Origin: Raillietiella orientalis
Lineage: Eukaryota
DNA: 64,000 nt
Direction: 5' to 3'
Assembly (NCBI GenBank): GCA_036172245.1
Contig: JAYWIR010000009.1
Coordinates: 2,480,001 to 2,544,000, forward strand
Positions 1,210-64,000 of this stretch are shown here, piece after piece. Each line of letters opens with the position of its first letter. Position 1 is the stretch's first letter. A model generated the notes under the pieces. It searched no databases. It had not been told where the DNA came from and saw nothing but the letters and a program-made list of their open reading frames with translations. Made by a program: the position numbers and the translations under genes.

Positions 1210-1259
1210 CTGAAACGGGACCGTGTCACGGGAGGCGGAAAGCGACGGGCAGGGCTCAC

Positions 1260-41133: not shown

Positions 41134-42029
41134 CATCTACTTCCGGTTAAGGTTATGAAGAGAGACACTGCTGCTTGTTTGAACACGGCGTGAAAATACC
41201 AACCGAACGGAAGGCCGCACTGCTCAGTGAACAGTTGGCAGAAGGCCTAATAGCTGACCACCCCCGATGTGAAAAGCAGCCAAACTTCGCGGGAATTTTA
41301 AAATTCGGCGAATTCCGACACTGCGTGACCGAAGGTGACGCTAAAGAACTTCCGTTTCCTTCGAGAAGTGCTGCGCGGCGTTCGGTTGCGACCTGAGCCT
41401 GAAAACCACGGTCCACACAGAGTTTCGGAGATGACGGAAAAGGATCGGCGAACGAGGAGCTTTTCCTGGTGGATGAGGAGCAGTCCGCTTGAAGTTCACC
41501 GGAAGCCGGAAGGATTTCGGGAAGGCACGGCGGACTGCAATTCTCCACATGCACAGCGCAATGCACTCGATTTCTCTTGGAGAATCTCCAGGCCGAAAAT
41601 GTCCACTTTTTTTTTCTTCCATTTTTCCACTGACTTCCAAGACCAGGATGATGTATAGAAAAGTCTGCCGACCGAAAGCTTGATGTCGCAATCACGATTA
41701 GGAGAACTTTATGGTATGGGAACTTACATACCGACCATGGAACAGAATTCATGGGGAGAAAATCCATCGCTGATGATGATGATTCGAGAATGGCTCAAAA
41801 TTTGCATCCGGAACGACAAATAATCCTTCTGGTACCCGGCGTGATGCCACCTCCAAATTGGATACTTCAGAAGAGGAAGATCCATAAATAAGCAAGTCTA
41901 CTCTCAGCGAGTGCACATCCAGCCTGAGTCTGAGTGACGTCACCCGGAGTTTGTGAGAAGACTGGGCGATTCACACATACTGAGAGTTCCGTGGGCTGAT
42001 TATTTTCAGGTCTCTCCGACTGCAAAGTG

Positions 42030-43030: not shown

Positions 43031-44899
43031 ATTACTTCTCTGTCTTCCTTAGGGCATTGCATTGTGTGCACATCCGAATGCTAGTGGTGTACGCCATCGC
43101 GCAAGAGTACGTTTCGTACTACTCCGTGCCATACGTTCACTACGGCCGGCTCGAATGTGCTCCACTGAGTGGACACAAGAGGATTCCACGCATTGGGTAT
43201 TTGCATTGCCTCAATTTCAACTTTTTCCGAACAAATAGATTCCATAAGCGAATGTGTTCCTTTAGAAACTGCGATGGAATTGAAGTCGAACCACGGCAGG
43301 ATTTTATTTTATTATTTTTTTTTGTTTTGAAGCACTCGTTTTTGCACCGCACTTTGACGTTCGTTTAATCGAGAATGATGCATGCCATTGAAAAAATGCG
43401 GACTTCCGTACTTTCTTGTACGACAGCGGGGTAGCGGGAATGCGTAAGACATGGGTGCAGGAATGATACATCACACGGGGAGATCAGAAATGCGCAGTTT
43501 GTGGTTCGTTCATGGTGCACGCTTGCGTGTGCTTGCCACGTGCTGCCAAGCAAGTGGGCTTGGCCATTCGAAGATCAGTTGCCATGCACGACTGCATGGA
43601 AACAGACTCTTCCGAATCCCTCCAGTATCTTTTAAGGCGAATTCAGATCATCGAAAGATATACAGGAAAACGATCAGTTCAAGAGTTAGGAACTTTCTGG
43701 CTCCAAGAAAGGACGAGAATTTGAACAAATTTCCTTCCTCCGCGGATGTCCACTTATGCCCAACAGACAGCAGAGCTCAGTCGCTTCGCCAGGCTCTAAA
43801 AACCACATCTTCATTATATATCTTTGTGTCCACTTGCTTCCTACATCGCTCCGGTCGTGCCTTCGTAACATGCAGAAAAGAGTGATTTCTTTCTTAGTCT
43901 TCGATGCTGATATCCCTGCCTGTCCGACGACCCTTCGAGGTGTACGCGGGAAGGACTTCTTCCCGTGTGGGTCCTGAGATCATTTCGGCACACTGACCTG
44001 CCCAGTTTGCCTAGGAACGCCAGAAGAACGTGTCAAGTTTCTTGTGGAGCAACGCAAATGTCCTGCGCTGATTCGAGCAGCAGCAAGACGAACATCCAAA
44101 TCTAAAATAGAGTTAGGTCCTAATTGGAGGAATCTTCAGGTGCCATCCAGGATGGCACATTCCTGTTCCGTAGAGTACGCCCGTGAGCCTTTCATTGTCA
44201 GGGAATCTCTATTTGGCTCAAGTGAGAACCAACGTCCACCTGCGCCGCTTTCAAGAACGAAGAAGAAAAAATCCGGAAGAGACGGCGACGGACGCGGTGT
44301 GAATTCCCCGGCACCGAGGTTTCCAGCTTTTCTCAACTCCCCTTCCTTTTAGCTCCTGGAGACATATATTCCAAGTGAACAAGCTCGAATTCAGCATCAA
44401 AATCTCCGTCTCCAGGCTGGCTCACGTCTCGTCTCCAATTCCTGTTTCCTCGGAAGCTCCTTTCTCTGTTGGTTGCCACGATGTTTCGCGACTGAGTGGC
44501 GATTCCCGATGGCGGAACGGAATGTCCTCGGAAGAATTCAGATGTGTTTCAAACTTGCTGAACCCTTCCAAATGGATCGCTAGCATCCTCAAGTGCGCTA
44601 CCAATTCATCCATGGATTCTTCTTGTTGGTATTCCTCAATCGGGACTCTGCTTCATAGGGCGCCTTTCCCATCTAAAGTACAATGGAACATTTGTCTGTA
44701 CGCAGAATGTAAGGTTGCTTAGAAATTGGACCAGCTCTGGAGAATTCCACGAGCTCACCTGAATTCATCCATGTCGATGTCTTTACTGCTTATTGAGGCA
44801 TTTGGAATTTTCGCTGACGACCGCTTTCAAGAGTGTTTACAGGTAAGTTCTCGTGATTTCTTCGAAGTCGCAGCAGCATCCTTTTTCTCTCTTCCCTCC

Positions 44900-47200
44900 G
44901 AAGCACTGGAGAGGACCTAAAACCAGATTGGGATGCTTCAGCGAATCCTGATGTGGTTCTTGAACCCATGCGAAAATTTGTCAGCCGGTCACGTCGGGTC
45001 GCTCAGTGATCAACGCCCTCACCAACGGGAAAGAAAAGGATGGTCCACCGACAGGAAGGTCGGCCGTCCCAGAAGTCCGGAACGGATGGGAGAGGACAGT
45101 AAACAAATGAAGGGAGCGTAGGGACGGAGGTCTCCGGTATCGTTTGCTCCTTTTTGCTCAGTACCGACGCAGCATGCCAGCGATCTCCGACTTGGCTTCT
45201 CCTTGCAGGAGAAGCCGCACCTAGGAACTGCCGTGCGGGTGACCTCCCTTCGCGCTCCCGAGACCCCAGCACATGGCAGACTGTGACGACGGCGCGGAGG
45301 AAACATCTCGATGCAGTCGGGGTGCCCGCTGTGAAGCCGCCGCGCGCGGAGCGCCGCAGCAGGTCCTTGGAGACATCCTCTGGAAGCAACAGCTCCGAAG
45401 ACAGACTCCTCTTCCACAGTTCGTGGAGGGCACGGCAGCCTATCAACAGATACGGGAACTATTCGGTCGCCCCGCACCTGGAACAGCTTTCAGCTCTCCC
45501 TGAAAAACGAGATGCCAGACGCTGATTGCACCGGAAGCCCCGGTTCTTATCCGGTTACGCCGGGACGTTCAATTGAAAAAGCAAAACAAACTACAGGTGG
45601 GGAAGAAGAGTCCTCCTCAAATACGAGAAATGCCAAAAAAAAAAAAGAAGCCCTTCAGGTTGACCACCGGCTTGCAGACCAGCTTCCAAAAAGTAGGTAA
45701 CGGAGAGAGAGAACAATAAATTAATAAAAAAAGAGGAGCAAGTGGGAACCGAGGTTTTTGGTTAAAGACGTTCCTTTTCTTCTAGAAGCGACTCTGGACG
45801 GTGGCGATCTCCCTGACAACTTCTGGCAGATGAAACCACCTTGCTGCCGCCCTTATGAGTGAGGGCTGCTGTCATGCTAATGGTCTCCCTTCGCAGTGAG
45901 CCTGACAACAACGCGTGGCGAACTGTATCATGACGCGGATGCAGCATCTTGTTGCGATCGTAGCGCTCTTCTTCAGTCCGCCTCCGGCGAAGAAGCGTCG
46001 CAACAAGTCTAGAACGGTGTCTTGAGGTTATCGGAGCGCCCAAGCGAGTCTCCAGCACAAGTTCTTCAGAATACTGCAGTCCAATAGGAGGTGCAGGAAG
46101 GAGGCGGCACATCTGCCATCACTTCTTTATGGCAGATGTCAAAGGAAAGGTCCTTTTCGCTTTTTGTTGCGCTGATAGCACTGGTGACCCCAGTGCAGAA
46201 ACAGAAGAACATCCTGTTCCCACTGGAGGAGGAACACGGAGGTGTCCACACCACAGGGGAAGGGCCGCGAGTTCTTCGGAGGGCACACCAAGCAGTTCAC
46301 TCGCGGGCGAATCAGATGACGCGTAGGAACGCCACCTGCTTCGCCCTGCGTTTCATGGCAGATGATGGCAGCAAGATGGCCCCACCTGGGGCGCACTCGA
46401 ATGCAACTTGCCAGCATCCTGGAAAGGATGCAGAAGACGCCCTCCAGCGGACAGTGATTCTTTCCCTAACCCCCCCAATCTTTTGTATTTTTTGTTTTAT
46501 TTTCTTTTTTGTCTGTCCTCCCCCCCTCTCTCCCTCCGCTGCCGAGGCGAACATTTCCGTCTTGCATGCCGGTCACTCGGCAGGTTGCGAGCATTTTCGG
46601 ACAATGTAGGGCCGCCTGTCCTACATATATATATGTTTATTTTTTATAACTAACGTCCCGTTGTGACCGGGTGATCAACCGAGCAGGTCGTTCTGCCAAA
46701 CGATTCCCTTCGGCCGAGAACAAGGAGTGGCGCCATCTACCAACCCCCCGGCTCGTCTTGAGGCCGTCGACTCTTGGAATGTTGCAGGAAACACCCACCC
46801 TGCCGGTTGGCTACTGTCAGTTCTCTCTCTGAGGTCAGACAGTGCTGCGGCAAGGGGTGTGGTGGCTATCCGGGACCACTGCGTTCACTCCTGCATAAGA
46901 ATCCCCCCGTCTCGAATAGGAGCTTCCGCCGCGGAGGCAGCTCCTCTGGGAGCACTTCCAAAGTGGCAACCCAGGACTCCAGCGCCTCATGCCTCCAAGC
47001 GTTCCGGTTCATAGGCAGCACATCCTGTTTCCGCCCCTCGGAGTGTCCAAAAGAAAAGGAGGGACCGCGAGTTCTTCGGGAGGCACGCTTGAAAGTTCGC
47101 GCCGCCGAGGTGGGGTCCACCAGCTCCACCGAGTGCTAAAACCGAGCAGCTCGCGTTCTTGAACTTGCCGATCGAGTTCAGGCCATCCTGCCGCATTTCC
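44900..47200 (-). mobile_element. Decayed HERO-like element (N-terminus to RT)
   Basis: TLLRRRRTEEERYDR...ALLSGSL, ERPGVTG*EPG (~QKGGVPG.PGC), GFTAGTPTASRCFL (~GIITGCTIS.ILF), EQTIPETS (~ETIPTV). Confidence 0.5.
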
Positions 47201-48699
47201 GCTGATCGAAGTTCGACGCGTGAAGTCAGCTGGCATGGGGAACGTTCGGCCCCAAGGCTCACGAAGGTGATCCGATGAGCTGAGTGGCTTGACCGCCGTT
47301 CAAGTAGGGCTGTTCTTTCGCTGCGGTGTTGGTCGTCCGCTCGCGTCAGAGTGTCGGGCTGATTGGTCGTAGCACCTCGGCGTCTTTGGTTTCCGAGTCT
47401 CGTCTGATTTGAGGAAGCTGGGATTGCATCGTGATCGAACGATGCTCAGAAAGTGCACCGGAAAGAGTATCTTTGGGAAGGGAACCCTCGTCGTACTTTT
47501 GGAGTTGACCATTTTTGACGGAAAACATCTGCAGCGAAGTGCCCTTTAACTCTTTCCACTACAGCATATATTTCTCAATACGTACAAAGTTTGGACGTAT
47601 TGCGAAATACGTTCAAACTGGGTGCAGTCGCAGAGACGCATGTGCATGACAAATAGCAGAAGTAGGAAGCGATTCACAGTTCGTTTCCATGACACCAGGC
47701 GGTTTGCTTGCATGATTTTTGCTGTGTGGGAAGAATAGGGGCGCGGCCAAAAATATGGATGAGGAACACAAAAGCTCTTGGAATGCACGAGAAGAATAAA
47801 TGGAGCTTCAATGCAGCCCTAATTAATTGATAAGTTCGATAAATAGATCACGGTTGGATCGGGTAAAAATCATGCAGGACAAAATCCATTTCGACCATTT
47901 CACTTCTTGATGGCAGAAGGAGCTTGAAATTCGTTGCAGGGCAACTTCTTGAAAGCCTTAGCATGGACAGAAACGTCCCCACGGCCACCATGCCGAATCA
48001 CTCTGCTTTCTTGTCCCCAGTAGAAGATACTCCCGATACCTTCAGACGGATGATTTTCTGCTTGCTTGGCTCCCTCGAAGCACAGCTCAGTGCCTGGTTC
48101 CGGATCTTCAGACGTTTGTGTCATCGGATGGCGGAAACTCCGGCGGGCGACAGCAACCCCTTGCAGCAGACAAGCAATTTGAATCGGAAGCCAAATCATC
48201 ACAACCGTGAAGTCTTTCGCCATTTCAATCTTCATTTCTCACGGGAATCGTTTCAGGATGCTCCGTTGACCGCTTATCCTTTCTGACCAAAGTGGGATGT
48301 TTAAATTACGTCAACCCTTTCTCCATGCCCTGCTCCTTGCACCGGCAAGGCCGCCTTATTGGAATGAGCCGCCTGTAGAGCTCAGCAGTCTCCTCTGTGA
48401 ACGCATCCTGGATCATCAAGGAAGATTTCCTAAGAGCCTAGCCAGTTAATAATCCGGTAAGGTAATTCAGTTACGGCATTTTCTACTGTATTTGCATAAA
48501 TAACGGTAATACGACTCATCCCTATTATACACTGAAGCATACAGTACATCCCACATGATCAGATACACTATCAGACCTAAACATACTATCATGGGGTGAG
48601 TTTATATGTGCATTGGGTAATAATAGATGTGATGATTACTATTCCAAACTACCTTGGGATCAATTAATGGATGCAGAAGCAGCCATCGCAGCTTCTTTG

Positions 48700-51600
48700 A
48701 GCCTTTGGTGGAACGGTTTCGATCCGCACTTTGGATCTTTCCCTTCCCAGAATGTGAAGAAATAAGGCGGAGGGCAGAAAAACGCCATTAGCACGTGGAC
48801 GGAGTGTTTAATAGTAGTCACCTCGAGTAATCTCAAATTCCTTGGATTCACCGTTAGATCGTTCACACTAAGATGGTACTCCCAAATCCAAGCCACAGCA
48901 ACCGTCAGCGGAGCTCGCAAAAATCCGGAGATCACATGAAGCCATAATCACCACCTGCAGTAGATCCTTTAATACTTGTTTATGAATGCGGTCATCATAT
49001 GGGATGCGACGGTTTGTCCCCGGAAACGGATTTCGTTTTCCTGCTGTCATTTCCGCATCATCGTAGAAAATTTCTGTTCTCGTCGTATCCGAACGCATCT
49101 GTGAAACGGCATCCAACGTCCGTTCGGTTCATTCCATCTTCCCCTTCTCCCCCAAGACACTTACATTTCTTAGTCCTTAATCTTCAATCAAAAAAAACAC
49201 TTTCGACGACCAGCCGTTGATTGTAAGCAACTCTTGTATTTTCTTCCCAGTTTGAAAAGCATGAGTAAAAACTGCTGATGCATTCCCTGACGTCATGGCT
49301 CCCCTCTTCAACACCTCTCGGAGAATTTCACAGCTGATTACGGATTTAATTACTCTTGAGCCCAAAGAAACTGCTTTCCCTCTTTTCATCACAAAGGCGT
49401 GCTTTTGGGACAAACAAAACTTTCAAGTGCCCATTCTTTTCTTCCGGGAAACTTTCGAGAGGCACAGCGATTGTTCGCCGAATCAAAAACATTGCATCGG
49501 ATGTGACTCTTCCTCGAGCTTCTTTTCGGGAACGTGATTCAGAAGAAAGGAAACCCGCGCTGGCGCATGCTGAAGGACCACGATAGCGGCGAGCTTCCTT
49601 AATGGCAAGTGGATGACTGGCTGGAAACCCCCTGCACAGAACGGTCACGCCTTCACAGTTCCTCGCTCCGGAAAAGAATGGAAAGCTCCACGATCTTGGA
49701 AGGAAGCTGCTGCTTCCCAGATGGTGCGAACGTTCTGGGAAGGTAGGAAGGCCTCTCTGGAGCTACGGTGCTGCTGCCCGAACCTCAAAGCAGAGTTGTT
49801 TGTCTCATTTTCCGGAAAAAGGGGAGGGCAGCTCTTGAGCCGTTCGCGAAGAGAGGTTCTCTTTGCCGACAAGAGCGCGCCTGCGGTTTCTCCGAGAGCC
49901 GTCTCGCGCCTTGCAGCCAACACAGTACGACACTCGGAAGAAGGTGTCGCGTGGGTGCACGCTGATGCCTCGGGATCGGAACTGAAAGTTGACTTCTCAG
50001 GACCGGAAGTCACGAGATTTTTAGGTGGGTGTATTTTTTTTTTTTTTTTTTTTTCTGCGGTCCAGGGTGAAATGATAACGGAAAGGCCTTCGAGCACGGC
50101 GAACAGTGGAATCGAAAGAAAATAAAATGAGGATCAAGTCGGGGCCGCGGAGGGGGGGAGAGCTCCGTGTACCAGAGATTTTCGCAAGAGTTCGAGACAC
50201 AAAGAGAAGGCGAATTCTCTTTCGACAGACACGACGAACTTGCGCAAAAAAAAACACATGGGCTAGGCGATGCTTCGAAGATTATTTGGTGTTCAGGAGT
50301 CCAGAGATGCTTCCGGATGCTGCGGTGCACAGAATGGGAGCAGCCTTTCGAATTCAAAGAGGATTCGCGTAGGACTGGGAAGGGAACGTTTTTTTATCTT
50401 TTTTTTGATTTAGTCGCTCTAGGAGTTGGTTGTAGCGTTTGGTGTGTGCGGCGATCATTTGCGGTTTTCGTGTCCTGAATTGATCCTGACTATGGGGATT
50501 GCCACAGAAACGGCGCCGCGGAGATTCCATGCCTGCCAGCGTGGATTCGCACGTCCAAAATCAACCGTGGAACCAGAGCGTGGAGTTCTGGAATCACTCA
50601 GGTGGATCCATTCGAAGCTTCCAAGGAGGGATGTGGGAGAGGTGGACTTCAACGGAATTGGCTAGTCTGGAAAATGGAAGAACGAAAACCGGAAACGGGG
50701 AAGCCAGAAGCGTGGCGTGGAAACGAACGGATCGGTATCGTGGAATGAAAAGCGCCACTTGCAAATAGGAATTCAATTTTGAATTACTGAGGGTTCTTTC
50801 ACGTGATCTCTTAGTTGCTGAAAAATGCAGGGTCCCCCAAATCATATTGCCCAGGGGATCGGTTTTGGCGAGCAGAAGTGACGCTCTGGTTAAGATCAAC
50901 CGGACTCTGGGTTGCGGTGTTCGATGCGATGCTCGCCAGGTGTCGGTCGCCATGGCCAGCAGGACGGTGGTGACCACGGGAATCGGAACCCGCTAAGGGC
51001 GTGAGCGATAACCCGCCTGCCCGAAGCAACCGGCTCTGGAGACGGATGCGTGGAGTCTGCATCCAGCCTCCGCCACCGCCGCAACGAAGCCCTTCTTGCC
51101 CTCCGGCGTTCCGTCGTAGGAAGATGGCGGATTGCTCAGGTCCAAAAAACAGCAGTCGGGCTCTATTCTCACCCAGGAAGCCAGAGCATTTATTTGAAAA
51201 ATAAACATATAACGAGAAAACTGTAGTCGGATTAGAGGCCCAACCACGTGCAATTTAACGGAGACCTGCCGGGTCACCGGTTCGCAGATCGGCGCGCTCC
51301 ATCACGGCGGCAGAGGGGAGGGGACAAACCAAAAATGAAAATAAATATACTTTGGGGGATGCGGGAAGAGATCACGTTCCGCTGGTGGCGGTCCTGTCGA
51401 TCCTCTGTAGGGTGTCGGCAACATCTCGCTGGATATTCCTTTCCAGGTGGGGCCATCGCGTTGCTATGCTGACGGCGAAGTGGATGGCATCCCTATCGCT
51501 GGGTCCTCCTGTTTCTTTGCTCCGTGCAGCGACGATCACGCGTAGGCAGGACGGGGCTGCCAGAGAGACCGCAGGCCGGAGGGCGTCGCGAAAGAAGAGG

Positions 51601-52020
51601 CTTCCAGGGTTGCGGCAAAGCGTTCCCAGGGGGGCCGGAGGGCAACACAGTCCACTAGCAGGTGGGGAGAGATTCACGCTCCCCGCAGCTGACACAGTTG
51701 GGGTCCACACACACCCGCGTGCAGTGACGACGGCGGGAGAGTTGGACTCGATGGTGAGTGCAGAAGGGTTTGGGCGTGAAGTCGACCAGAGCCGCCGACA
51801 GGTGCACTGATGCGGCGAGATCCCTGAATGCCTTGCGCCGAGGAAGGCGGCAGCGTGAGAACGGGGGGTTCTGAGGGCGGCCCAGAGTGCCCGAAGGTCT
51901 CGCAGGCGACCGCGCCTTCCTACCATCTCTCGTCTCACCAACTTGGAAATGACGCGACTCTCCCGAATACGGATGGCTGCTGCTGTCCGCATGGAAAAGA
52001 GTCAGAATTTCTCCGCAGTC
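48700..52020 (-). mobile_element. Decayed Tx1/L1-clade element (ORF1, APE, first half of RT)
   Basis: AAIRIR at the ORF1 start; MKRGKAVSLG (~GK.PG.DG); LLTINGWSSKVFFLIED (~NWRPISLLN.DYK); YDDRIHKQVL (~FDRV.H.FL); NGESKEFEITRG (~NG..S..F.ITRGVRQG). Confidence 0.55.
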
Positions 52021-55000
52021 TTTGAGCCATCTGATGGCAATATCGAGGCTGTGGAATGTTCCCGAACACGTTTCATCAAAACTCCTGTCTGCGCTGCGTA
52101 CGGCCGTCGTGCACCTTTATAACATTAATATGTAGCGACACTAAAAACCCTTCAGTTGCCATTTCTTTTATTATGGTTATAATTCATAAACTTCAAAACA
52201 ACAGTTGATCGCTAATGAGGGAAAGAGAGCCATTCCTCAAGGCAAAAATGACCCATAAAAGGATATGACTCTTTAACGTGATCTGCCGAACGAATGAAAG
52301 CAGAGAAAACTTGGAAGAAAGTCACTTTCCACAGTCGCCGCAATGGATGGAAAAGGAAAGGAAAAGGAAAAAAGCACATGGCTTTGTGAAATGGCCACCT
52401 CCAACAAGTCTTCACGGCTTCAGATTTGGACTCGGTGAAATGCGCATACGAGGGAGGCACGGGAGGTTCCTTCCTTTGCCATGGAAACACAGTTAGGAGG
52501 TACCTTCGGTCTCCGAGGGGAATTCATTCCCCCTAGCGATTTCGCCAGGTAGAGCACTTGCGGAGGGCTTCATTTGTTTCCCTTTCGTGGAGAAGGAGAC
52601 CTGCATTGGTTACTTCGATCGGCATCCTTCGTGCTGCGGATGAAATTCGTATTCTTTTTGCCAAGAGCCAGCAATGAATTCCTTTTTGAAACGGCACGGG
52701 TAGTTGAACCATCTCTTCCTCGATAGAGGACGCAAGGGTCTTTGAATTTGAGTGCAGTTTTAGTCGAGTTGCCTCTTCAAGCAGAAATCGCATGCGTATC
52801 CGTGTTCGAAACCGGATGCTGTTTGCAAGATCATACGTGCAATTCTTTGTAATGTAGCGTATGCAATGCTGAGTCATTCCGAAATAAAGTATACCTTTTT
52901 GATTTGAATTCAATGTAAATGTCCTTGCGATTCGTGCAAGTCATGGGCGTTCTAATTTATGGCGCCATTTCATTCCAAAAATGACGCGCCAAGCATATTC
53001 GGTTCCTCAGCACATAAGCTGGAAAGTTAAGCGACTTGCACGAAAAATTATCCTTGGCTTTCGCAGGTTGCACGAGGAAGGACAGATCCACTTCCTAGTT
53101 CGGGGTTATAAGTCGGACCAATCGCTGAGGATGAGTGTCCCAATGCAAGAAAAATTCCTGACGATGCATCACCACGGGTAACGTTAACACGGTAACACAA
53201 ACGAATAATCATATTAGGTGCCATTGAAACGACGGTTAGTAATAATGCCAGGCAGTACATAGTTTCTGGAAGGAAACAGCGCCAACGGATCACACCGATG
53301 GCGCACTCAGTGGAAGGCATCTTGGCGTCATGGAGGGTGCATCTTCTCACTGCAAGAGGAGAGAAAGGACAACCTCTCAGCTGCGGTAATTTTGGGTAGT
53401 AAGCAATCGGCCAAGGGAGAGGGAATTCCTTGCCTGGAGTCTGGAAATTCGTTCCCGAGCTGCAGCAGAGTCACAGCGACAAAGAAAGGGTTAGAAGTCC
53501 ATCTCCCCGGAGCTGCGACTCATCCCGACGTGCTAAACATGGAATGATGATTTTAAAATTCCTTCATTGAAAGAGGTTTTAATTGCTTCACGACAAGGAG
53601 GGGCAGCAAACTTTGGTGAAGATCCATTGCAGATGCAATTTTCTAGAAGCCACGCTCAGGCGTGCCATACCTTTCGGAGCACCTCAGCCATTTATAACAA
53701 AGTATGCGGAATTCATACGGCGGTGGACAAAGGCTCAAAAACACGTCCGGCAGCCTGGCATTGAGCACGTAATTTTTGAATGAGCAGATTTTTTTTCTAT
53801 CTATGCCGCAGCCAGCATTCCTTTTTTTTTTTTCTCTCTCCTTTTTTTAAGAGCCCCCATCGAAACCCGAGTATTACTTTTGGTGATGCCTGTGCCATTC
53901 GTCTCCGTGGATGAAAGAAGATTTGAATGACCATTAATGTGATGGTATAATAGTGGGTTAGGAAGCGAGAATCTCCTTGGTCCATTAATTTTTCTTCCGA
54001 ATATTTGTTGAACAATTTTCAGAGACGTGCTTTCTCGGCTTATCCTTCTTCGACGAGGAAGCCCCACCACATCAACCAGTGGTTTTTCCGCATCCTGTAA
54101 CAAATGAGCTTTTAATGAAAACCTTCTCATTGCTCCTGATGCTGCTGCCTATTACTGCTAATTGCACCGGGCGAGGATGGGGAATGTTGTGCGGCACGCA
54201 GATTTCAAAACTCTCACACATAATTAACACAAAAATACTTTTAAGAATAAGCCTTGCTTACCACCTTAAGAAAAGAATAACACGAATCTTTTCCAGTTTT
54301 GATTGCATGTCCGTACTATCCGTGCAGCCATCGGCATTTTGAAAATCATGGCACCACCTCATTTCAAAAATGGCGAGCCAAACACACAACAAAATGGCGG
54401 ACGCGTCCACTTCCATGGAATAAAAAGTGCTTGGTCTATTAAAAGGCGGCACACACACAGCTTAAAACGGTTGGAAATGGAAGGAAAATCCCAAGCTCGT
54501 TCGAAAATGATCAATTCATGAATTTCCCGAAGCTTTGGCAACGGTTCCCAAAGGCACGGCTTCCGTGGCTCATCACGTGGATCCAAAAAGGTGACACGCA
54601 TGCATCAGATTTCAACCACCTTAACGGCAGCTTTCCTTCCAACTTTCTAGTAATTAAGAATTCGAATTTTCTTTGATCGGTCGAAAGTACATATTACATT
54701 CTTCTTGAAATTCACGCATATAGCGTATTGCATAAACCGAAAACGGATCACGTGCAAGAATTGTTATTACCAACAGCAAAAGTAACTCCTAAATTGAGTA
54801 CATGTGTTTCCTGTTCACATCAGTGATCATTCGGGAATTCCTCAAGGATTCGTCTGCCTCGAAGCCCCGTGCTGTGTGGTGTGAATGGGGGTCACGTGCG
54901 GGAATTTCGTCTTCCATGACGAAGGAATCCAAAAGGTGTGTAATTTAGAACTCACTTTGGGGCCGATGCTGAGTATGCCGCGATTTCCAAGAGCAAGGGA

Positions 55001-55499
55001 GAGAGAGAAATTCCTCTAAATGACGAAACAGCGTGTAGAGCGGAAATGCACATGTACCGTACAATTTCATTTCATGGATTCCATCCCTGCAAGAAGATCG
55101 GAGCTCCTCAACTTGTTGCTCCAGCGTACTCGAACTTGCTCAAATGGTCACACCTTACAGGCAAATATTTTTCTCTTGAGGCAGCCTCCGTGTCCAAGAA
55201 GACTTCCTTTGAAGATTCGCGTGCATTCGCGGATGGTGCATAAATCACAGCCGTTGCATCGGCTGACTGAGTAACCCGCGGTGGAGCAGCACTCGTGTGA
55301 AGCTGTGATCTGTGATCCCAAACTCCGAATCGGGAACCGCGTCGGAAGATGACTGTGCCGAGGAATGATTCGGCTGGCAAGAGGGAAGCATCGGCACTTT
55401 TTCCCTGAGGTCAGCCGCTCCGAAATCCCGAAACCAACAAGCTGGGAATAACACGCGTCGCACTTGGTAGGTCTTCAGCGCAGGTCAATTGCTCGAGCC

Positions 55500-57791
55500 G
55501 TGCTTTCCAAATGATCACTGCTCCCATCCTCTCGAACTCTGGCGGTCACCTACGAACGCCGAAGGGCGGCTTTCTAGAACGAATCGCTTTGCTATATTTC
55601 TGCACTGCCGAGCCCTCCCCCATTGACGCACGGGTCCGAACTAAAGGAAAGCTGGTTACCAATTTCCTCAGATGTCAGGAGCTCTTAATGGTGCATTTAA
55701 TAGTGTATTTTACAGCCGGCAATTATTCACGATCTTGAAGGAGACGAGGGAAGGCTTCATCCGGAAACTGTGGTTACGAGCGCGGCAAAGCCACGTGATA
55801 TGGGGACGCTGCACCCTTTCCTACAAAAGAAGCAGGAATCGGTTCCAGAAGTATCCGAGTGACCTTCGCCAAGTACCAATTCATCCTCAGAACCGCCGGG
55901 AAACAGCGTCGATGGCGGAAGTCGGTCATCAGAGCTTGTGAAATGAAAAAAATAAACAAATAAAAGGAGATAATGAATATCCTCCAAGAAATATCTACAA
56001 TTTCGTGGAGTAATCCACGAGAAGATTCACTGTGGCATCCGGGCGAATTCTGCATAAGGACCGGAAACGGGGACGTCGGAACATCCGCCACGTTTTTAAT
56101 TTGCCTTTTCGAAGTAACGTGGTCACTTTGAACTTTTTTGCGAATTCCATAATCCCGCGTTGATTTGTCACTTTGGTAACCAAGAAACCAATTTACGGGC
56201 TTCCTATTTGGTTCTCTAAATGAAGCAAACCTTTCCATCTTTTCTTTTTTTGCTGCTTTACGAAGGACTCTCCGACGAGCAGAAACCACAAGTCGCATTG
56301 ATAATAAAGTGTGCGATTGCGTCCAGCATCCGGCATCTGGCAAATCGAGACTGGTCGCAGGTAGAGGAAAGGATGAAGAGGACCCTGCCCGGGTTCCCGA
56401 TTCGCATGGACCCTCCTTTGAAAAGCAAACTGACCAGCCGTTGAAAACGAGTTCTGGACTAACCAGAGTGCTCGAAGCATTGACGTCGCCGGGAAAACTT
56501 TTCTAAGGGCAGAAGGATGCTCTCAGGAATCTCCCGGCTTGAAGCTTCCGGCGCGGAGCTCCAGCTGCTCCCTCGGTCACTGGGAGGGCAGAACTGACGC
56601 GTGCAGGCGTCGGACTGTGCCAACGCTCCACCAAACAGCGAGGAGGAGAGAAAACCGCTGAGTGGAAGGATGAAATCCGAAATAGCACGTCTGACCGAAT
56701 TCTTCTTTGGGTTCTGTTCCCGAGAGTAGAGCGACAGCACACCTCATGTGCGCGCACATGCGCTCAAAAGCATCCTTGGCAAAGAGCTGGGAATTCTTCT
56801 CGCAATGAAGAGCGAGGGAAAGACGCGCTGGAAGCTGTCGGAGTACCTGAAGGAATCGCGACTCCCGCGGAGCGTAAAACGGAGAGGGTATTCTTTTTCT
56901 TTAAAAAGAAGAGGGAGAAGAAAGGCGAAACCGCGCTCATCAACGGTACATGTTTCTCGGTGACAAGAAGGAAGCACTCCGAGATGCAGCTGATGGAATC
57001 ATCATGGAAATCCGATGGGATCGGCAAACGAGCACATCCGTGAATGCGGAGCGATTCAAAAATTCCAAGAGCCCTCACGGATCGTTCAGCGTGCGGAGAC
57101 CGCGCGAAATGTTCGCGGACCAGTTGCCGAGGGGGGAGCTGAGAAGAGATGCCTTCGGCATGCATACCGGCAACCGATCGCGCATACCGAAGATGCGGAC
57201 TGTGGGAGGGAGAGTTTGCCTCGTATGATGAGGCGCCTGTGCCCAGAATGACCCCGCCACCACCACGTCAGGGTGGGAAATACTTTCTGGAAACCAGAGT
57301 GCACCCGGAACAGAGAGTCCAACGTGCTCCAGCACCTCGCAATGGTCCTCTGGTCGTCCTGGATGCCGCCTGTCCGTTTGAGAACGGCGAGGAAACGTTC
57401 AGTACAGCCAAACAAGAAAAACACCTGAAACATTGCCCAACACATGATCAAGCGCCAATGTCCAGGACCTAATTGTGGGTTCGCTTGCTAACCGGGACCC
57501 AATGAACGATGGCGCCCTACGAGACTTGGGAATCCCATCACCATGCGCCGAAAAAATGAGGTGTCTCATAGTTGCCTCGTGTATTCGGAATCGTCGTGAC
57601 TTTTATTCGACCCACAGGCTACGACACCCGCCAGACCACGCTGGCCAACCAGAGGGAGGATTGGCGGGAATGGCAACCGAAGGGTAGATCACCAACGAAT
57701 ACAAGAAGATGCTGACACATTACTGCTTTATGTTGTGGAATGGAGGATTGCGTAGAGCAATGCATTTCATTCTATTGAACCTAAATTGAAA
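55500..57791 (+). mobile_element. Utopia-like RLE non-LTR retrotransposon (RT, zinc knuckle, RLE, 3' UTR) ending at U2 sequence
   Basis: LKETREGFIRK...VIWGRCTLSYK...HPQ (RT subdomains 1-2); DRAYRRCG/CGRESLPRMM (CCHC knuckle); LVVLDAACPFENGEETFSTAKQEKHLKH (RLE D...PFE...K..K); IVGSLANRDPMNDGALRDLGIP...KMRCLIVASCIRNRRDFYSTH. Short 3' UTR ends aaattgaaaa, followed directly by U2 TCTGTTC. Confidence 0.8.
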
Positions 57792-57871
57792 ATCTGTTCG
57801 TATCAGCTCCATATTCGAGGCTAAGGTCAAAGTGTAGTATCGTTCCATTAAACTGTAGTATCAAAGTGTAG
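57792..57871 (+). pseudogene. U2: Cluster of four short U2 snRNA fragments spanning the retrotransposon target site
   Basis: atctgttcgtatcagct (U2 ~39-55, 1 mismatch) at 57792-57808; ggctaaggtcaaagtgtagtatc-gttc (~19-46, 1 mismatch, 1 gap) at 57819-57845; tgtagtatc (~33-41) at 57854-57862; atcaaagtgtag (~26-37) at 57860-57871. Confidence 0.85.
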
Positions 57872-60800
57872 GTGACCAATAGCTACGTATCCGTGACGTG
57901 TGTACCTTTTCTTGTTTCTTAATTATTTGATTTATGCTTGTGTTGAGTTTATTTCGGATTTCCGATCTTTTGCGGCCTCTTTGGTTTGCATGTCCTCCCC
58001 AGATCCTGATAAATTCGGATGCGTTGTCGGTTCTGTGCTGTCGTTGCATGCATTCGCTCTTTGTGTTTCCGCTGTGATTGGTTGCTTGTTTTTCAAAATT
58101 GGGCAAACTTTGCTCCTATCTGCGAGTGCTTTCGTGTCCCTTTTCGATGTGTGTTCCGTTTCCAACGTTCTTCGCTCCGTTGTTGTCTTCCTTTCCTTTT
58201 GATTTGTTCGACTCGAGTCGGTTTCCAGAGTGTGGCTGCTAGGGTCACGACGGTGCTTGCGGCCGGCGAGCAGGTGGGGTTCAAGAAGAAGAAGATAGCA
58301 GGGACCTTGGACTCCCATCTTCAAGGTGCTAAAGGCGGTTTGCAAGCCGAATCTCCCATAAGGTCTGGGGAACTCTTGTTTTCCTTACGTAGAGGTGGGT
58401 TTCGCCTGATGACACAAGTTTCACCGCAGTTTTCAAAAGCAAGGCATCGACCGCGGGCAAGGGTGAAAAGCGAGGAGGATTCCCTTCTGCATTCCTCTTC
58501 GGAGACAACCAGGGTGAAGGTGATCTCCATTTCCGGGGATTCCTCCCCAGGCGTGGGAGGAACGGACTCCGAGTCCTTCCTGGATTCATAGTGCGGTCCC
58601 CTCCTGGGGTACCCCCTATCTTGAAGGATTACCCATCCTCGGGTGGCGTGGAACCGTGCCGAAGAACTGCGAAGACAGAAAAGAAGGATATGGATGCAAA
58701 TCTATTTAATCTATTTAAGTCCCCCAGAGGCATTCAGAGAAACTAATCATAAGTGTAAAGACGTGGGCGCTCAAAAGTCTGCTCAATTTACCTTTTCCCG
58801 GATGCAAGGAGACTCCACGTGAAGAATTCTCATAAAATCAGGAAAAATATCTTCAGCCAGATCGCAGACTCCGATGAAGTATCAGAAAAACGAACAAAAG
58901 CTGCAGTTAATACGCAAAACACGTTTTTTTACGGGGAAAAAAAAAAGTTGTTGTGAGTAATTTGGGCCAGTGCTCAATCAGTGAAGTTGAGAAGAGTACG
59001 GAGATTATTGTAATTTGATGAAAGATTGCTTGGCTGAAGACATCTCAGTTAACTCATTTCGTTAGTAGCGTATGGTGATGGAATTCAAAATACATGCAGC
59101 TTTTAAAGTATAAAAATCCAATCATCGGAAGAGATTCAAGAAAAAAAAATCACATACGAGAGCAAGAAGGCACCGTGTTTGTCTTTTCTGCTTTTGTTTT
59201 TTTTTTAAAAAAAAAGTGATTTAAGAAAAGAATCAAAAGCGCAACTTGACATACGTGTGATTTATGTCTGTTCTTATGCATTCTTCCGTATTGATTAAAA
59301 GGAGTAATAATTGGGGCACTGCGATTGCAGCAAATACTCTGGAAGGTGTAGGTCAAACCAACGAAAGAAAAACCACCATAAAAGCTATAAAGACTGCTAC
59401 GAAACTGCGGCTAAAAGCCTTCACAGTTTTCAATCTGGGATGAGTCTCGAAGAGAGGGAAAGGCGCCACTCTGCTTTTCCTTCCCCAGTTCCTCTTCTTT
59501 CATGTGTTGTCGTGAGGACCACGGGGCTGCTGCTGGAGGCTGACGCAATCCGAATGATGAGGCGTTTGCATTCTTCCGACGTTGGTACGGTTGCCCCGCA
59601 TCCTCGAGAACACGCGTTCGGGAGACCGAAAACTCAGTCTGCAAACACTGCTCACTGCCGTGCCGTACTCGACCGATGAGCATTCATCTTTGCTATTAAG
59701 AATCTGGAGAAGAGGGGGGGATTAGAAGACACTTCAGTCTGATCCAGAAAAAAAATTGCGCATGATGTCTTCTCTGGAAGAAAACTCCATCGCATATTAG
59801 CAGCTCTTCTTGTACCCATTAATAACCATCCTACCGATTACCATGACAAATAAGCGGAAACCTTCTCGATGTACCAAGGCTCATCGAAGAGTAACGAGAC
59901 CAAGTTTTTACCACAGTAGGCGTACTGCCATCAGGATTGATGTATTCCTTTTCAAAAAAGGCTTACAAGGAATGCAATTCGTCTGCCGCCATCCACGGCT
60001 GAAACAAACCGTACAAGCAAATTGCCTTCGGTAAAAATAAAAATAGAAAAAGCATCCAAAGCTTTGGCAGCCGACGTTCAAATGAGCACAGCCAGCCTCG
60101 ATGAATTTTTTACGAGTTTGCAAGTGGTCCAAAGTCATTCCGGAGCTAAAGGGATGCTGGCGCTGAGGAGAGTGGGTGGGACGAGGGAATCAAAAGACTT
60201 CCTTCTGCCAAGGTTCCCAAAATTGGTAACCACGCTGCACACATGTGATCCTAGGTTCGTAAGAGTGGACGAACACCCTTCTTTCTGACTCTCCAGGTGC
60301 ACCTACCCTGCTAAAGAATCGGAACCGGCAGGAGCCACCCACCGCACAGACGTCAACACCTCGTCACTCGAATTCGAGGTCTGTGCTTGCACAGACGAGT
60401 GTATGAAGAAGAAGGCAACCACCTAGGACTGTGGCAATTGTGACCTTCATGGATCATGGCCATGTGTACTTCTTTAGCCGTCCTTCTTCGATATATGCCC
60501 GTTCAAATTCAGCATTTCAACGAACTAGCTTTTCCTCATGTCTTTTTCGTTTTTGCTGTTGTCAAGGAAACTTGAATCGCAGTAGCTGAAACCCACTGAC
60601 ACCGCTCTTCATGGCTACCCACTTTAGCAACGACTCTAAAGATCGCAGAATGACTTTGTCTTCCTGTAGAGAACATTCGAGAATAAGGAAAGCAGCTGCC
60701 AATAGCCTTCCCGGTCCTACGGGTGGTACACTACAGTACATTCTGAATGGAGCGCGTGCACGATGACGCGGACGATTGCAAATCCGCCGATGTTCCTCCT

Positions 60801-62000
60801 ACGCATCGCAAACTTTTGTGCTGATTTCATGCGAACTGAATTTTGCACAGATTCAGAGTGAGCCCTCGGAAAAGTTCCGAAAACTGCTTTGAGCAGCCTC
60901 CGAAGAGAGATCTCCGTATAGGCCGCGTGATGCTGCTATGGTTTCCTTCCAAACAGATTGCCAACTATCTCATTAAATTGCCTACGTTTCGGAAAACTGC
61001 TACTTTCCTTTGGCTCACATTCTGTACTTCTTTTCGGCTCTCGGGTTTCCTTTACAGAATAAGTAAGCGAATTCCAGAAACTCAAATCTTAAGCCTGTAG
61101 CTTATTATATCGGTGTACAGTACTACAAAGTGCTTCCAATGTGGACCGCTGAGGACGGGCGTGCTAACTGATTCTTGCCCATTGATAATACGGCAGTTGA
61201 GTTTTCTCTCATCAATCTGATCCTCGTATTACAACGCAGAGATCAAAGCAGCGTGCGCGCCTCCCCCGCCCCGCTTTGCGTCTTTCCGGAAAGAGATAAA
61301 CCGAGGATGCTTTCGAAAGCATCGCTCCGCAGCTTCCACCTGGACGTCTTCAAGCAGGATTTTCAGGTCTCCCACTCGCTCCCGGGCTTCTCAAACCTCC
61401 AATATTCGAACCATTCGGCGAATTCCCCTGAAATCTCTGGACCCCATTTTCTAATCATTCTGTAACTGGGGAACAGGTCATCGGGTAAACTCAATTGTGA
61501 TTTCCCGCGAATTTTCACAAAAGGGGGGAGAAAAAAAAAAAAAAAACGGCTGTTTTTTTGGCAAACAGTACGAGAACCTGCTTATCATGTTTTCAAGCTG
61601 TCCTTGTTCCCAGCCCGAAGGCAATATCTTCTTTTTTTCTTAAAGGTTCGGCTAGGATTTTAAATTGGTTTACCCCAAAACGACATTCATCATTATTTAT
61701 GGCAAGAAAGGCAACTGATATCGCTCTTTAGTGATGCTCCGTCTTTTCGCAAGAACGTTCGGGAAGATTAACTATGATTTTAACAAAAAATGTCGTACGG
61801 CAGATTAGAACGCTGACCACAATTCTCGGATCGGTGGCATAAATCGAAGAGCAATTAACTGTCCAAGCTTGTTCGGTCGATGGGAACTGGTTACGCTGTC
61901 CGAAGGCGGGGCTGGTTGTTCACGAAACGATGAAGCAACAGGTGGATGGAAGCCGGAAAGCAACCTCCGAATCATTCATCACTTGCGCACCTCTTCCTTT
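57872..62000 (+). mobile_element. Decayed Tx1-clade element starting at the U2 target site (Keno-like)
   Basis: T-rich 5' UTR. ORF1 remnants RRIWMQI and NHKCKDVGAQKSA (~CHKC...GH....C). APE remnants VIIG/HCDC (~IIGGDFNC) and YKDCYE...HSF. EENSIAY (~EKPS.YF). RT remnants KGMLALRRVGG...PKLVTTLHTCDPR (~G.I.L..K.G...NWRPITLLN.DYK), NPLTPLF (~CPLSPLLF), DDADD, FRVSPRKS. 3' limit uncertain. Confidence 0.55.
58471..58646. mobile_element. MITE-like repeat, copy B (truncated), interrupting the Keno-like ORF1
   Basis: High similarity to 63346-63512 (ggaggattcccttctg.attcc.cttcggaga.aaccagggtg.a.gtgatctccatttccggggat.cctccccagg...cttcctggattcatag). Confidence 0.8.
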
Positions 62001-62186
62001 TTTTTTTTTTCTCTGGTTCACTCGACCGACATCACATCGGCAAACGTGGAACTCGCTCGGCTCATCGAAGAGGTCGCAAGCAGGGTTACCACGACGCCTG
62101 CTGATGCTGCGAAGCCTCTGAATGGGGTGACTCGCGTTACTTCTTCCACCTCTCCAGAGTGATTCGTTGGGGTGGCTCACGAGTAG

Positions 62187-62261
62187 TGTGATGCTCGTGA
62201 TTTGTATAGGCAAAGGCAACTAGCTAACGAACTGCCTTTGCATGTAATCATGAGCATCACA
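62187..62261. other. ~75-nt stem-loop
   Basis: tgtgatgctcgtgatt pairs with aatcatgagcatcaca (16 bp, one G-U). gcaaaggca pairs with tgcctttgc (9 bp). 14-nt loop. Confidence 0.7.
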
Positions 62262-63024
62262 TCATTAGAGGTTTGGTACACGACACACACAGCAGCTGTT
62301 TGTTTAGGGAAGCACCGCTTTACTCTCTGCGCTATATGGGTGTTTTGATTCGAAAAATCGCCGTAGTGGATTCGTGGATTCCAACTTTACAATTCTACCG
62401 TGCTGATAATCTACTGCTTATCTCTATCCATACCTTTCATCTTTCCGAAAGCAATTGCTAACCTTCCGTGTCCCTATGGCACTATGCAGCGAGTTGCTGA
62501 GCATTCATCTAATCTTCTAATTCTTCCGATGATTCTGCTTCGCCTCCCACTTCCACTTTACGAAATAAATCCATCTCACGAGGTGCAGGAAATGTAGGTG
62601 GAATCAAATCGCGTCCACTAAATCCCGAGATAGGGTGACTTGTGATTCAGTGCGACCTTCAAATTTCCGTTTGCCCCATAAATTTTGACAATTTTCATTG
62701 TAAAGCAACCCTATTGGAAAATTTTCTTTTTCCTTTTTTTTTTTTTTTTTTTGAAAGAAAGGAAAAAAGGCAACCCGATATCTTTGTCAGCTTCCCATCA
62801 TTCTTCCTTCAAGTTCCTGTAACTCGCAGTGGCTGCGTTCTTTTCGAAATTTCGATTCAGCACCGGTGCTTGCTCGTGGGTCGGATTCCAGGTTCGCATC
62901 TTTGCACGGAACTGTGGGGGAAAAGGAAATAGGTGGGCACTTTCCACGTGCTGGCCGTCTCGTGGTCCGACGTATGAAACTGGCAATCTTGGCATTCTGC
63001 ACTGAACGCCATATCTGCAAGACT

Positions 63025-63513
63025 CGACCTCAGGGTCATTCCAGGAATCACGGAGTGGGGAGTTCTCCCTCCGGCTGTAAAGGAGAGGATCCTCCATTCC
63101 GGAGGGACCCTCCGCGTCGTACTGATGGAGTAGGCGTGTCGCCACCATCTCTCCAGAGAGTGCAGAGAAGCGAGCCGATTCCTTCGGGGAAGCTGCGTCC
63201 TTCAGAGGAGTAAAAACAGGAGCGGATCCCTTGCGGGGGATCCCTCCGGAGAAGAAATTCCAGGATCGGATCCTTTTCTGGGTTCCCTTCAGAGAAGAAA
63301 GAATGTAGAGGAACTCCCCCCGGGAGTCCTCCAGAGAGAATAAGGCAGGAGGATTCCCTTCTGGATTCCCCTTCGGAGATAACCAGGGTGGAAGTGATCT
63401 CCATTTCCGGGGATCCCTCCCCAGGAGTGAGAGGAACGGACTTCCTGGATTCATAGGGCGGACCCTTCCCGGGGTAACCCCTATTTTGAAGAAGGACCCA
63501 CCCTCTCGGTGGG
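63025..63513. mobile_element. MITE-like repeat, copy C
   Basis: Homologous to copies A and B. Internal GGATCCC/GGATTCCC-type sub-repeats. Shares the same terminus (ctcggtggg) as copy B. Confidence 0.75.
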
Positions 63514-64000
63514 TAATTTCGACGCCAAACGTCACGAAACCGCCTCCAGTAAATCCTCGCAGCACAATTCGGGTTTGCCATTCTCTTTCGGCAAAGCAAA
63601 GACGTTCGATCCCTCGTCTCCTGAGAAAGTCACACAGCCTTTTCGATTCCCCGGCCTCTAACAAGTGACTCCAGAAATCGCGGAATCACTTGAAAGCCTC
63701 ATTTACAGGTCAGCCTGTCGCTTCATAATTTTAACTTTCTAATATGACAGAAGAACCATCGAATGACACAGCCAGGGGACTCCTTATTACGAAATAAATA
63801 AAAGCAGTGACGAGGGATGGTTATTTTCACCTGCACGATGCTCCATCATGGGATGCTGACACAGACAGTGTATTCTTCATGCCCTGAATGTGTTTCAGAT
63901 GTTCCTCAGAAAAGCATGCAAATCCACTGCATTTGCATTCAGGGAACCTACAGGAATCGCTCTCAAATTGATTGATTGATGTTGCAAAAGGATATGAATA

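What the first reader, a model, noticed from the sequence alone, without database searches (positions are those of the whole stretch)
57690..57950. Two unrelated U2-targeting retrotransposon types (Utopia-like RLE and Keno-like APE) joined head-to-tail through a reiterated U2 target, outside any U2 gene
Seen: the RLE element's 3' UTR runs directly into U2 TCTGTTC.TATCAGCT. Three further U2 pieces covering nt ~19-46 follow within about 60 bp, and the last (ATCAAAGTGTAG) abuts the 5' end of a Tx1-type element. The rest of U2 (Sm site, 3' stem-loops) is absent. Established: Utopia (RLE) and Keno (Tx1 clade, APE) independently target the same region of U2, around the branch-point-pairing GTAGTA. 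Inference: U2 sequence carried by one element's read-through transcript acted as an ectopic landing pad for the other, or for repeated insertion and repair cycles. This would be a self-propagating, cross-clade array on a mobile U2 target.
Basis: partly seen in the sequence, partly recalled or inferred. Interest (0 to 1): 0.8.

Follow-up and report, generated by a model that had tools for sequence, protein, structure and literature searches.

The report
Decayed U2-targeting retrotransposon remnant, no Keno
A dead, truncated copy of a U2-snRNA-targeting jumping gene sits next to a scramble of short U2 pieces and a second non-coding insert, which is an ordinary relic of a known element type and not a junction of two unrelated element classes.

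Summary
The U2 pieces are real and not chance. TCTGTTCGTATCAGCT lies at 57793-57808, and three overlapping pieces of the U2 5' region lie at 57819-57871. No U2 gene is present (Rfam).

Upstream, on the same strand, three reading frames at 57140-57690 carry remnants that look like a restriction-like endonuclease (RLE). They are followed by about 105 nt of 3' UTR that ends exactly where published Utopia and Keno insertions end, with the flank starting at U2 nt 39. No database search confirmed the RLE reading, so it rests on motifs.

The claimed Tx1/Keno element downstream is not supported. Six-frame Pfam scans of 40000-63999 found no RT, no AP endonuclease and no other domain, while an Ig-domain control passed. 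The first 450 nt downstream are T-rich and non-coding.

One new point: a second exact U2 nt 39-49 match (TCTGTTCTTAT) starts abruptly at 59267. So 57872-59266 looks like a second, about 1.4 kb, non-coding insertion into a U2 site.

Verdict: an old Utopia-like 3' fragment plus a messy U2 junction and an unidentified second unit. The cross-clade "self-propagating array" is unsupported. Interest is low to moderate.

The parts
56300..57792 (+). Element A: decayed, 5'-truncated 3' part of an RLE-type (Utopia-like) non-LTR retrotransposon. The 5' boundary is uncertain and was set only from where the A-rich skew begins.
   Evidence: AT skew is positive from about 56300 to 57800. No RT was found upstream. 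The 3' end is defined by the U2 nt-39 junction.
57140..57687 (+). RLE-like coding remnants split over three frames by frameshifts. A zinc-knuckle/RH-like stretch lies in frame 3 at about 57148-57240. The ..LVVLDAACPFENGEETFSTAKQEKHLKH.. stretch lies in frame 2 at about 57340-57430. The ..DLIVGSLANRDPMNDGALRDLGI.. stretch lies in frame 1 from 57448, with its stop at 57685-57687.
   Evidence: Three-frame reading. The regex for the core motif hits once in all six frames of the window, here. In block shuffles, 22 of 200 give one or more core hits, and 0 of 200 give the core plus K..K[YH]. The regex was written after seeing the sequence, from a recalled consensus. No database confirmation was obtained.
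57688..57792 (+). Presumed 3' UTR of element A (about 105 nt), ending ...cctaaattgaaaa.
   Evidence: It lies between the last frame's stop and the U2 junction.
57793..57808 (+). U2 piece 1: TCTGTTCGTATCAGCT, which is U2 from nt 39 (+1..+16 of the insertion site).
   Evidence: The paper states that the flank of Utopia and Keno starts at nt 39 and quotes TCTGTTCT....
57819..57845 (+). U2 piece 2: GGCTAAGGTCAAAGTGTAGTATCGTTC, about nt 19-45. It spans the insertion site uninterrupted, with one T missing after TC.
   Evidence: TGTAGTATCTG is quoted as U2 in the paper. The 5' half of the assignment is recalled.
57853..57862 (+). U2 piece 3: CTGTAGTATC (about nt 31-40).
   Evidence: family D12.
57861..57871 (+). 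U2 piece 4: TCAAAGTGTAG (about nt 26-36). It is an exact repeat of 57827-57837, overlaps piece 3 by TC, and stops 2 nt short of the insertion site.
   Evidence: (family D15).
57872..59266 (+). Unit B: 1395 bp with no detectable coding capacity. It is T-rich at its 5' end and AT-rich at its 3' end. It is a candidate second U2-site insertion of unknown family.
   Evidence: It is flanked 5' by U2 up to nt 36 and 3' by U2 from nt 39. No Pfam hit was found. It shows no similarity to A. The Atlas gave a low recognition score of 933 and no usable hit.
58473..58646 (+). Short interspersed repeat inside B. A second copy lies at 63347-63512 (83% identity).
59267..59277 (+). U2 piece 5: TCTGTTCTTAT (nt 39-49), starting abruptly.
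   Evidence: 2 exact hits against 0.03 expected. One search shows no U2-like sequence just upstream (872 of 1000 shuffles score as high).

Best explanation
This is the relic of insertions by U2-snRNA-site-specific non-LTR retrotransposons.

Element A (about 56300-57792, + strand) is an old, 5'-truncated, frameshifted copy of an RLE-encoding, Utopia-like element. It was integrated by target-primed reverse transcription at the conserved U2 site, so its 3' end abuts U2 nt 39.

The 79-nt mosaic that follows (57793-57871) is made only of U2 5'-region pieces in the same orientation. It is most likely the heterogeneous 5' junction of a second insertion, unit B (57872-59266). B has no coding capacity, and its 3' end again abuts U2 nt 39-49.

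The duplicated pieces, the short spacers and the TC overlap are what template jumping or microhomology repair at a 5' junction, or a U2-co-transcribed leader, would leave. Nothing identifies B as Tx1/Keno.

Shown: the junction positions, the U2 pieces, and the absence of RT/APE domains. Inferred: the RLE identity of A (motifs only), B being a single insertion, and the template-jump origin of the mosaic.
For: - The 3' junction of A lies exactly at TCTGTTC. PMC4640811 states that U2 downstream of Utopia starts at nt 39 and that Keno shares this junction (sections read).
- RLE-like motifs lie on the same strand 100-650 nt upstream, in the expected order.
- The core-motif regex is unique in the window. 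In shuffles, 22 of 200 have the core motif and 0 of 200 have the core plus K..K[YH].
- The U2 motifs are confined to this cluster.
- The second nt-39 match at 59267 is significant and starts abruptly. Together with piece 4 it brackets B as an interrupted U2 site that lacks 2 nt.
- Composition flips at the A/B boundary.
- Known precedents:
  - Utopia copies followed by short U2 fragments.
  - Tandem Utopia insertions (20 of 94 N. vitripennis 3' junctions).
  - Several families in one U2 array.
  - Variable 5' boundaries.
  - 5' addition of U2 sequence by template switch, as in SINEU.
Against: - No search recognised the RLE remnants.
  - Exhaustive phmmer against 1.84 billion representatives gave 1 hit, a spurious repeat protein.
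  - PDB gave 0 relevant hits for the 3 fragments.
  - The word-index search gave 0.
  - The Atlas gave no hit.
  - Pfam gave 0.
- No RT was found anywhere in 40000-63999, so family placement by RT phylogeny is impossible.
- The RLE regex is post hoc and comes from a recalled consensus.
- B has no recognisable feature of any element family, and its 3' U2 match is only 11 nt.
- No U2 5' half was found upstream of A.
- This is a single locus, and no other copy was available.
Confidence: 0.55

Rival explanations
1. A Utopia-like RLE element and a Keno-like Tx1/APE element are joined head to tail through U2 sequence carried on a read-through transcript, forming a self-propagating cross-clade array.
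For: Both element types are documented to use the same U2 site. The U2 pieces lie between two different, unrelated sequences in the same orientation. A second nt-39 junction lies downstream, and this fits Keno as well as it fits Utopia.
Against: There is no AP endonuclease, RT or any Pfam domain in 57864-64000, although the control works. There is no [FY]ADD-type motif on the + strand downstream. The sequence is T-rich and non-coding from 57872. In the passages read, Keno is reported from vertebrates, lancelet and cnidarians. The only taxon hint here is an arthropod (mite) relative at 35% identity.
Confidence: 0.07
2. A and B inserted independently and sequentially into a pre-existing tandem cluster of short U2-derived fragments. 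That cluster was a decayed U2 array or a U2-derived satellite, like the U2_sat used by YURE elements.
For: At least three copies of the target region are present. One of them (57819-57845) spans the site uninterrupted. The paper describes insertions into U2-derived satellites and arrays holding several families.
Against: The U2 pieces are only 10-27 nt long and are spaced irregularly (10 and 7 nt, with one overlap). No repeat unit is recognisable, and no further U2 motifs occur anywhere else in 64 kb. Tandem repeats were not searched for with a dedicated tool.
Confidence: 0.2
3. The whole block from A through B is one chimeric cDNA made in a single integration event by serial template jumps. 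The order would be B RNA, then U2 snRNA or a U2 leader, then an A transcript that read through into U2.
For: All parts share one orientation. The junctions show short filler sequences and a 2-nt overlap. A is 5'-truncated, as expected for the last template copied. [quoted passage not shown]
Against: There is no direct evidence. The target-site duplication or flanks of the composite cannot be defined, because A's 5' end is unknown. The relative ages of A and B cannot be compared.
Confidence: 0.13
4. The U2-like pieces are part of the normal terminal sequence of A or B, for example a target mimic or a 3' transduction fixed in the family, and are not target DNA.
For: Only short U2 stretches follow both A (16 nt) and B (11 nt).
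Against: The published Utopia termini stop precisely before nt 39. The two flanks differ from each other (G against T at the 8th base, then they diverge).
Confidence: 0.05

Closest known systems
Utopia (U2 snRNA gene-targeting RLE non-LTR retrotransposons, NeSL clade; Kojima & Jurka 2015, PMC4640811)
   Same: The 3' end abuts U2 exactly at nt 39 in the orientation of U2. RLE-like remnants lie upstream of a short 3' UTR. Only a short U2 fragment follows the element, and a further element-like unit lies nearby. The paper reports both short U2 fragments and tandem or multi-family arrays, and lists many arthropods, including a tick and a spider, as hosts.
   Different: No RT is preserved, so clade membership cannot be shown. 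The copy lies outside any U2 gene. The paper's main text (sections read, term searches) does not describe this scrambled set of four U2 5'-region pieces. Its junction figures are PDF supplements that I could not read.
Keno (Tx1 clade, AP endonuclease, U2-specific)
   Same: It uses the same 3' junction in U2, so the junctions at 57793 and 59267 alone cannot exclude it.
   Different: No AP endonuclease or RT was found on either side. A carries RLE-like motifs, not APE-like ones. In the passages read, Keno is reported from vertebrates, lancelet and cnidarians.
SINEU and snRNA-LINE chimeras (5' addition of U2/U1 sequence by template switch; Kojima 2015, PMC4494074)
   Same: U2-derived sequence sits at the 5' side of a non-coding retroposed-looking unit, with variable truncation points and short homology at junctions.
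   Different: SINEU is crocodilian, short, starts from the U2 5' end and is mobilised by Tx1-Mar. Here the U2 pieces lack nt 1-18, are scrambled, and B is 1.4 kb.
R2 5'-junction heterogeneity and end-to-end template jumping
   Same: This is a mechanistic analogy: duplicated or deleted target sequence and filler at the 5' junctions of RLE elements. The basis is the paper's remark that 5' boundaries vary 'as is observed in the cases of R2' and its citation of Bibillo & Eickbush 2004.
   Different: R2 uses a different target (28S). The comparison is by analogy only and nothing was tested here.

Membership tests
Utopia | 3' end joined to U2 so that the flank starts at U2 nt 39 (TCTGTTC...) | tested here: met
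   The junction lies at 57792/57793. The criterion comes from PMC4640811.
Utopia | C-terminal PD..D/ExK restriction-like endonuclease preceded by a zinc finger | tested here: inconclusive
   Motifs were seen by eye in three frames and by a post hoc regex. No hit came from phmmer on 1.84 billion proteins, PDB, the word index, the Atlas or Pfam. The AF2 model was unusable (pLDDT 52).
Utopia | RT domain that clusters with Utopia/NeSL in an RT phylogeny | tested here: not met
   No RVT domain was found in 40000-63999 in any frame (control). The copy is truncated or too decayed, so no tree is possible.
Utopia | N-terminal zinc fingers | not testable with these tools
   The 5' part of A is missing. 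No C2H2 pattern was found in 52-64 kb.
Keno / Tx1 clade | AP-like endonuclease domain at the N-terminus of ORF2 | tested here: not met
   No Exo_endo_phos-type hit and no other Pfam family in 57864-64000 or upstream. No GD.N or SDH.P motif was found on the + strand there.
Keno / Tx1 clade | RT of the Tx1 clade | tested here: not met
   No RVT hit and no [FY]ADD-type motif downstream.
Keno / Tx1 clade | 3' junction at U2 nt 39 | tested here: met
   It is met at 57793 and 59267, but Utopia shares it, so it does not discriminate.
U2 snRNA gene (Rfam RF00004) | Match to the U2 covariance model (Sm site, 3' stem-loops) | tested here: not met
   No U2 hit at gathering score or at E<=10.
SINEU-like U2-headed retroposon | U2-derived head starting at the U2 5' end, a short body, many copies | tested here: inconclusive
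   The U2 pieces lack nt 1-18 and are scrambled. B is 1395 bp. Copy number is untestable because no genome is held.

The most novel reading that the evidence does not exclude
Unit B (57872-59266) is an undescribed non-autonomous element that is itself specific for the U2 nt 38/39 site and is mobilised in trans by Utopia-type machinery. The A-U2-B block would then record template jumps between transcripts of two different U2-resident families through U2 sequence. That would make it a mixed-family array built on U2 micro-fragments outside any U2 gene.
Probability: 0.15. Interest if true: 0.5.

Novelty: new member of a known kind. Interest (0 to 1): 0.25.

Why it matters
If confirmed, this adds one more host genome, possibly an arthropod, to the known range of Utopia-like U2-targeting elements. 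It also gives a small worked example of how messy 5' junctions of RLE elements reshuffle target sequence.

It does not show that two unrelated endonuclease classes chain onto each other, which was the interesting part of the original claim. The only part worth following is whether unit B is a real non-autonomous U2-site element. No such partner of Utopia is mentioned in the sections and passages I read, but I ran no search aimed at that question.

Tried and rejected
- Whole-genome search: no genome is held.
- Earlier findings, by place, by words and by sequence: nothing.
I redid it with ORF pieces and with stops read as X.
- Exhaustive phmmer of ORF 57143-57469: 1 hit, a tandem-repeat protein, judged spurious.
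- Word-index search with 'longer' lengths: 96 candidates, none at E<=10.
- PDB phmmer of the three A fragments: only noise.
- ESM Atlas for the A ORF and the B ORF: no usable hit.
- AlphaFold2 of the A ORF without an alignment: pLDDT 51.9, pTM 0.12, no secondary structure. It was not searched further.
- Metagenome scan with the A ORF: 2 loci, both bacterial operons matched through one peptide pattern. Rejected as spurious.
- Similarity between the A and B ends, or between the B end and the B start: not above shuffles.
- Terminal inverted repeats for B: none convincing.
- tRNA-derived head for the repeat in B: no tRNA found.
- Reading 59240-59277 as an uninterrupted degenerate U2 fragment: rejected.
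- Full-text search for the 15-mer of piece 2: 0 papers.
The junction figures S1 and S4 may bear on how unusual the mosaic is.
Full report
**1. What is in the sequence**

Reading 57400-58300 shows the following on the + strand:
- ...cctaaattgaaaa | TCTGTTCGTATCAGCT (57793-57808)
- a 10-nt spacer
- GGCTAAGGTCAAAGTGTAGTATCGTTC (57819-57845)
- a 7-nt spacer
- CTGTAGTATC (57853-57862), overlapping by TC with TCAAAGTGTAG (57861-57871)
- then gtgaccaatagc...

Kojima & Jurka 2015 (PMC4640811; Results sections read, term search) give the basis for calling these pieces U2:
- U2 sequence downstream of Utopia insertions starts at nucleotide 39.
- Keno has identical 3' flanks.
- The paper quotes TCTGTTCTAATCAGTGTGAAA, TGTAGTATCTG and TCTGTTCTT as U2 target-site sequence.

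So piece 1 is U2 from nt 39 on, and pieces 2-4 cover the GTAGTA region just upstream of the site. Assigning the GGCTAAGGTCAAAG part to U2 nt ~19-31 rests on my recall only.

**2. Is it more than chance?**

- The 14-mer has one match with 1 or fewer mismatches in the window, here.
- AGTGTAGTATC is exact at 57831 and has 1 mismatch at 57852.
- TCAAAGTGTAG is exact twice, 34 nt apart.
- Every 8-mer of the GTGTAGTATC region occurs only in this cluster, on either strand of the 64 kb.
- TCTGTTCKTAT has 2 exact matches against 0.03 expected, and 0 of 100 shuffles reach 2.

The cluster is real. It is not a U2 gene. Rfam reports no U2 at gathering score, at E<=10 on 401 and 91 nt around it, or at E<=1 on 48000-64000.

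**3. The upstream element (A)**

There is no long ORF. A three-frame reading shows remnants on the + strand in the order expected for the C-terminus of an RLE-type non-LTR element:
- frame 3, about 57148-57240: ..CLRHAYRQPIAHTEDADCGRESLPRMMRRL.. (zinc-knuckle/RH-like)
- frame 2: ..GGKYFLETRV..(17 aa)..GPLVVLDAACPFENGEETFSTAKQEKHLKH..
- frame 1, from 57448: ..VQDLIVGSLANRDPMNDGALRDLGI.., stopping at 57685-57687

About 105 nt of 3' UTR then run to the U2 junction. The consensus I compare with is recalled and comes from no call.

A regex for the core motif (D[AVILC][ATSC][CVI].[FY]E) hits once in all six frames of the window, at 57362. In 200 block shuffles, 22 had one or more core hits, and none had the core followed by K..K[YH]. 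The regex was written after seeing the sequence, so this is only a rough measure.

Formal searches all failed:
- Pfam on 68 ORF pieces of 45 aa or more in 53051-57860 found nothing relevant.
- Pfam on six read-through frames of 52000-63999 and of 40000-51999 found 0 families. The same method recovers the Ig domains at 529-1452(-).
- Exhaustive phmmer of ORF 57143-57469 against 1.84 billion representatives gave 1 hit, a tandem-repeat protein.
- The word-index search gave none.
- PDB gave nothing relevant for three fragments.
- The Atlas gave nothing.
- A metagenome scan returned two bacterial operons, which are spurious.
- The AF2 model was unusable.

No RT and no [FY]ADD-type motif lies upstream on this strand.

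I therefore read A as a 5'-truncated, frameshifted, old copy. Its RLE nature is probable, at about 0.8 in my own estimate, but it rests on motifs plus the junction.

**4. The downstream sequence (B)**

The claimed Tx1-type element is not there:
- 86 ORF pieces in 57864-64000 and all six read-through frames give no AP endonuclease, no RT and no other family.
- There is no APE-type or RT-type motif on the + strand.
- The first 450 nt are strongly T-rich (AT skew -0.33 to -0.59), whereas A is A-rich.
- The longest ORF scores as non-protein-like.
- B shares nothing with A.
- The only repeat in B is a 170-bp interspersed element, also present at 63347-63512.

New observation: the second exact match to TCTGTTCKTAT lies at 59267-59277 on the same strand. 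Nothing U2-like precedes it, since 872 of 1000 shuffles align as well. So U2 identity again begins abruptly at nt 39, as at a 3' junction.

With piece 4 ending at nt ~36, the stretch 57872-59266 (1395 bp) is bracketed like one insertion into a U2 site with loss of 2 nt. PMC4640811 notes that arthropod Utopia families make no target-site duplication.

**5. How it most likely arose**

Steps that are shown:
- two nt-39 junctions in the same orientation
- U2 5'-region pieces between A and B, with an exact 11-nt duplication, a 2-nt overlap and short fillers
- one piece (57819-57845) that spans the site uninterrupted

Step established by the literature: Utopia and Keno integrate at this site, 3' boundaries are precise and 5' boundaries vary "as in R2". 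The paper also reports Utopia copies followed by short U2 fragments, by other Utopia copies (20 of 94 junctions in N. vitripennis), and several families in one array. Template switching that adds U2 sequence to the 5' ends of retroposons is discussed in PMC4494074 (passages).

Inference: the mosaic is the 5' junction of B's integration, or of a chimeric cDNA, next to an older A insertion.

I cannot separate three histories from one locus:
- sequential insertion into pre-existing U2 fragments
- one multi-template cDNA
- a decayed U2 array

**6. Comparison with known families and novelty**

This works like, and probably is, a Utopia-type relic. Of the Utopia features:
- the junction criterion is met
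- the RLE criterion is inconclusive
- the RT criterion is not met, because no RT is preserved

Keno/Tx1 membership fails on both the APE and the RT criterion.

The only taxon hint is an Ig-domain exon whose best named relative is an oribatid-mite protein at 35% identity. The paper lists arthropods, including a tick and a spider, among Utopia hosts. My recollection that the U2 variant seen here is of the invertebrate type comes from no call.

The finding is thus a new member of a known kind. The cross-clade, self-propagating array is unsupported.

**7. Limits**

- No genome is held.
- No sequencing run was listed.
- No Repbase or Dfam library was available.
- Everything rests on one locus.

Noticed in passing
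window 50813-51089 (+): A diverged fragment of eukaryotic large-subunit rRNA (Rfam RF02543, 50.1 bits, model positions 967-1379) sits alone in non-rDNA context, about 7 kb upstream of the U2 cluster. It could be a retroposed or transduced rRNA piece.
   Followed up: partly
window 58473-58646 and 63347-63512 (+): A short interspersed repeat of about 170 bp in two copies at 83% identity, one of them inside unit B. ARAGORN found no tRNA genes anywhere in 50000-64000, and no Pfam hit was found.
   Followed up: partly
window 529-1452 (-): An exon-like ORF of 308 aa with Ig_3, I-set and C2-set domains. Its best named relative is an oribatid-mite protein at 35% identity. This is the only hint to the host taxon.
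   Followed up: partly
window 55237-55306 (-): A weak match to the CPEB3 (HDV-like) ribozyme model (21.2 bits, E=0.11, below the gathering score of 35). HDV-like ribozymes process some non-LTR elements, but this match is on the opposite strand to A and is probably noise.
   Followed up: no
window ~27512 (-), ~37132 (-), ~21160 (-): Isolated LINE-like peptide motifs in broken frames..FADDAKL.. at about 27512, and ..SDHFP.. and ..SDHPP.. at about 37132 and 21160. They suggest other decayed APE-type LINE fragments elsewhere in the window. No Pfam RT was found among ORFs of 110 aa or more.
   Followed up: no
window 57800-58300 (+): A sharp switch to T-rich composition (AT skew to -0.59) starts right at the end of the U2 mosaic. 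This is unusual for the sense strand of a non-LTR element, which is normally A-rich.
   Followed up: partly
window 62801-63685 (-): A 295-aa open frame without any Pfam family. It overlaps the second copy of the short repeat and is probably non-coding.
   Followed up: no
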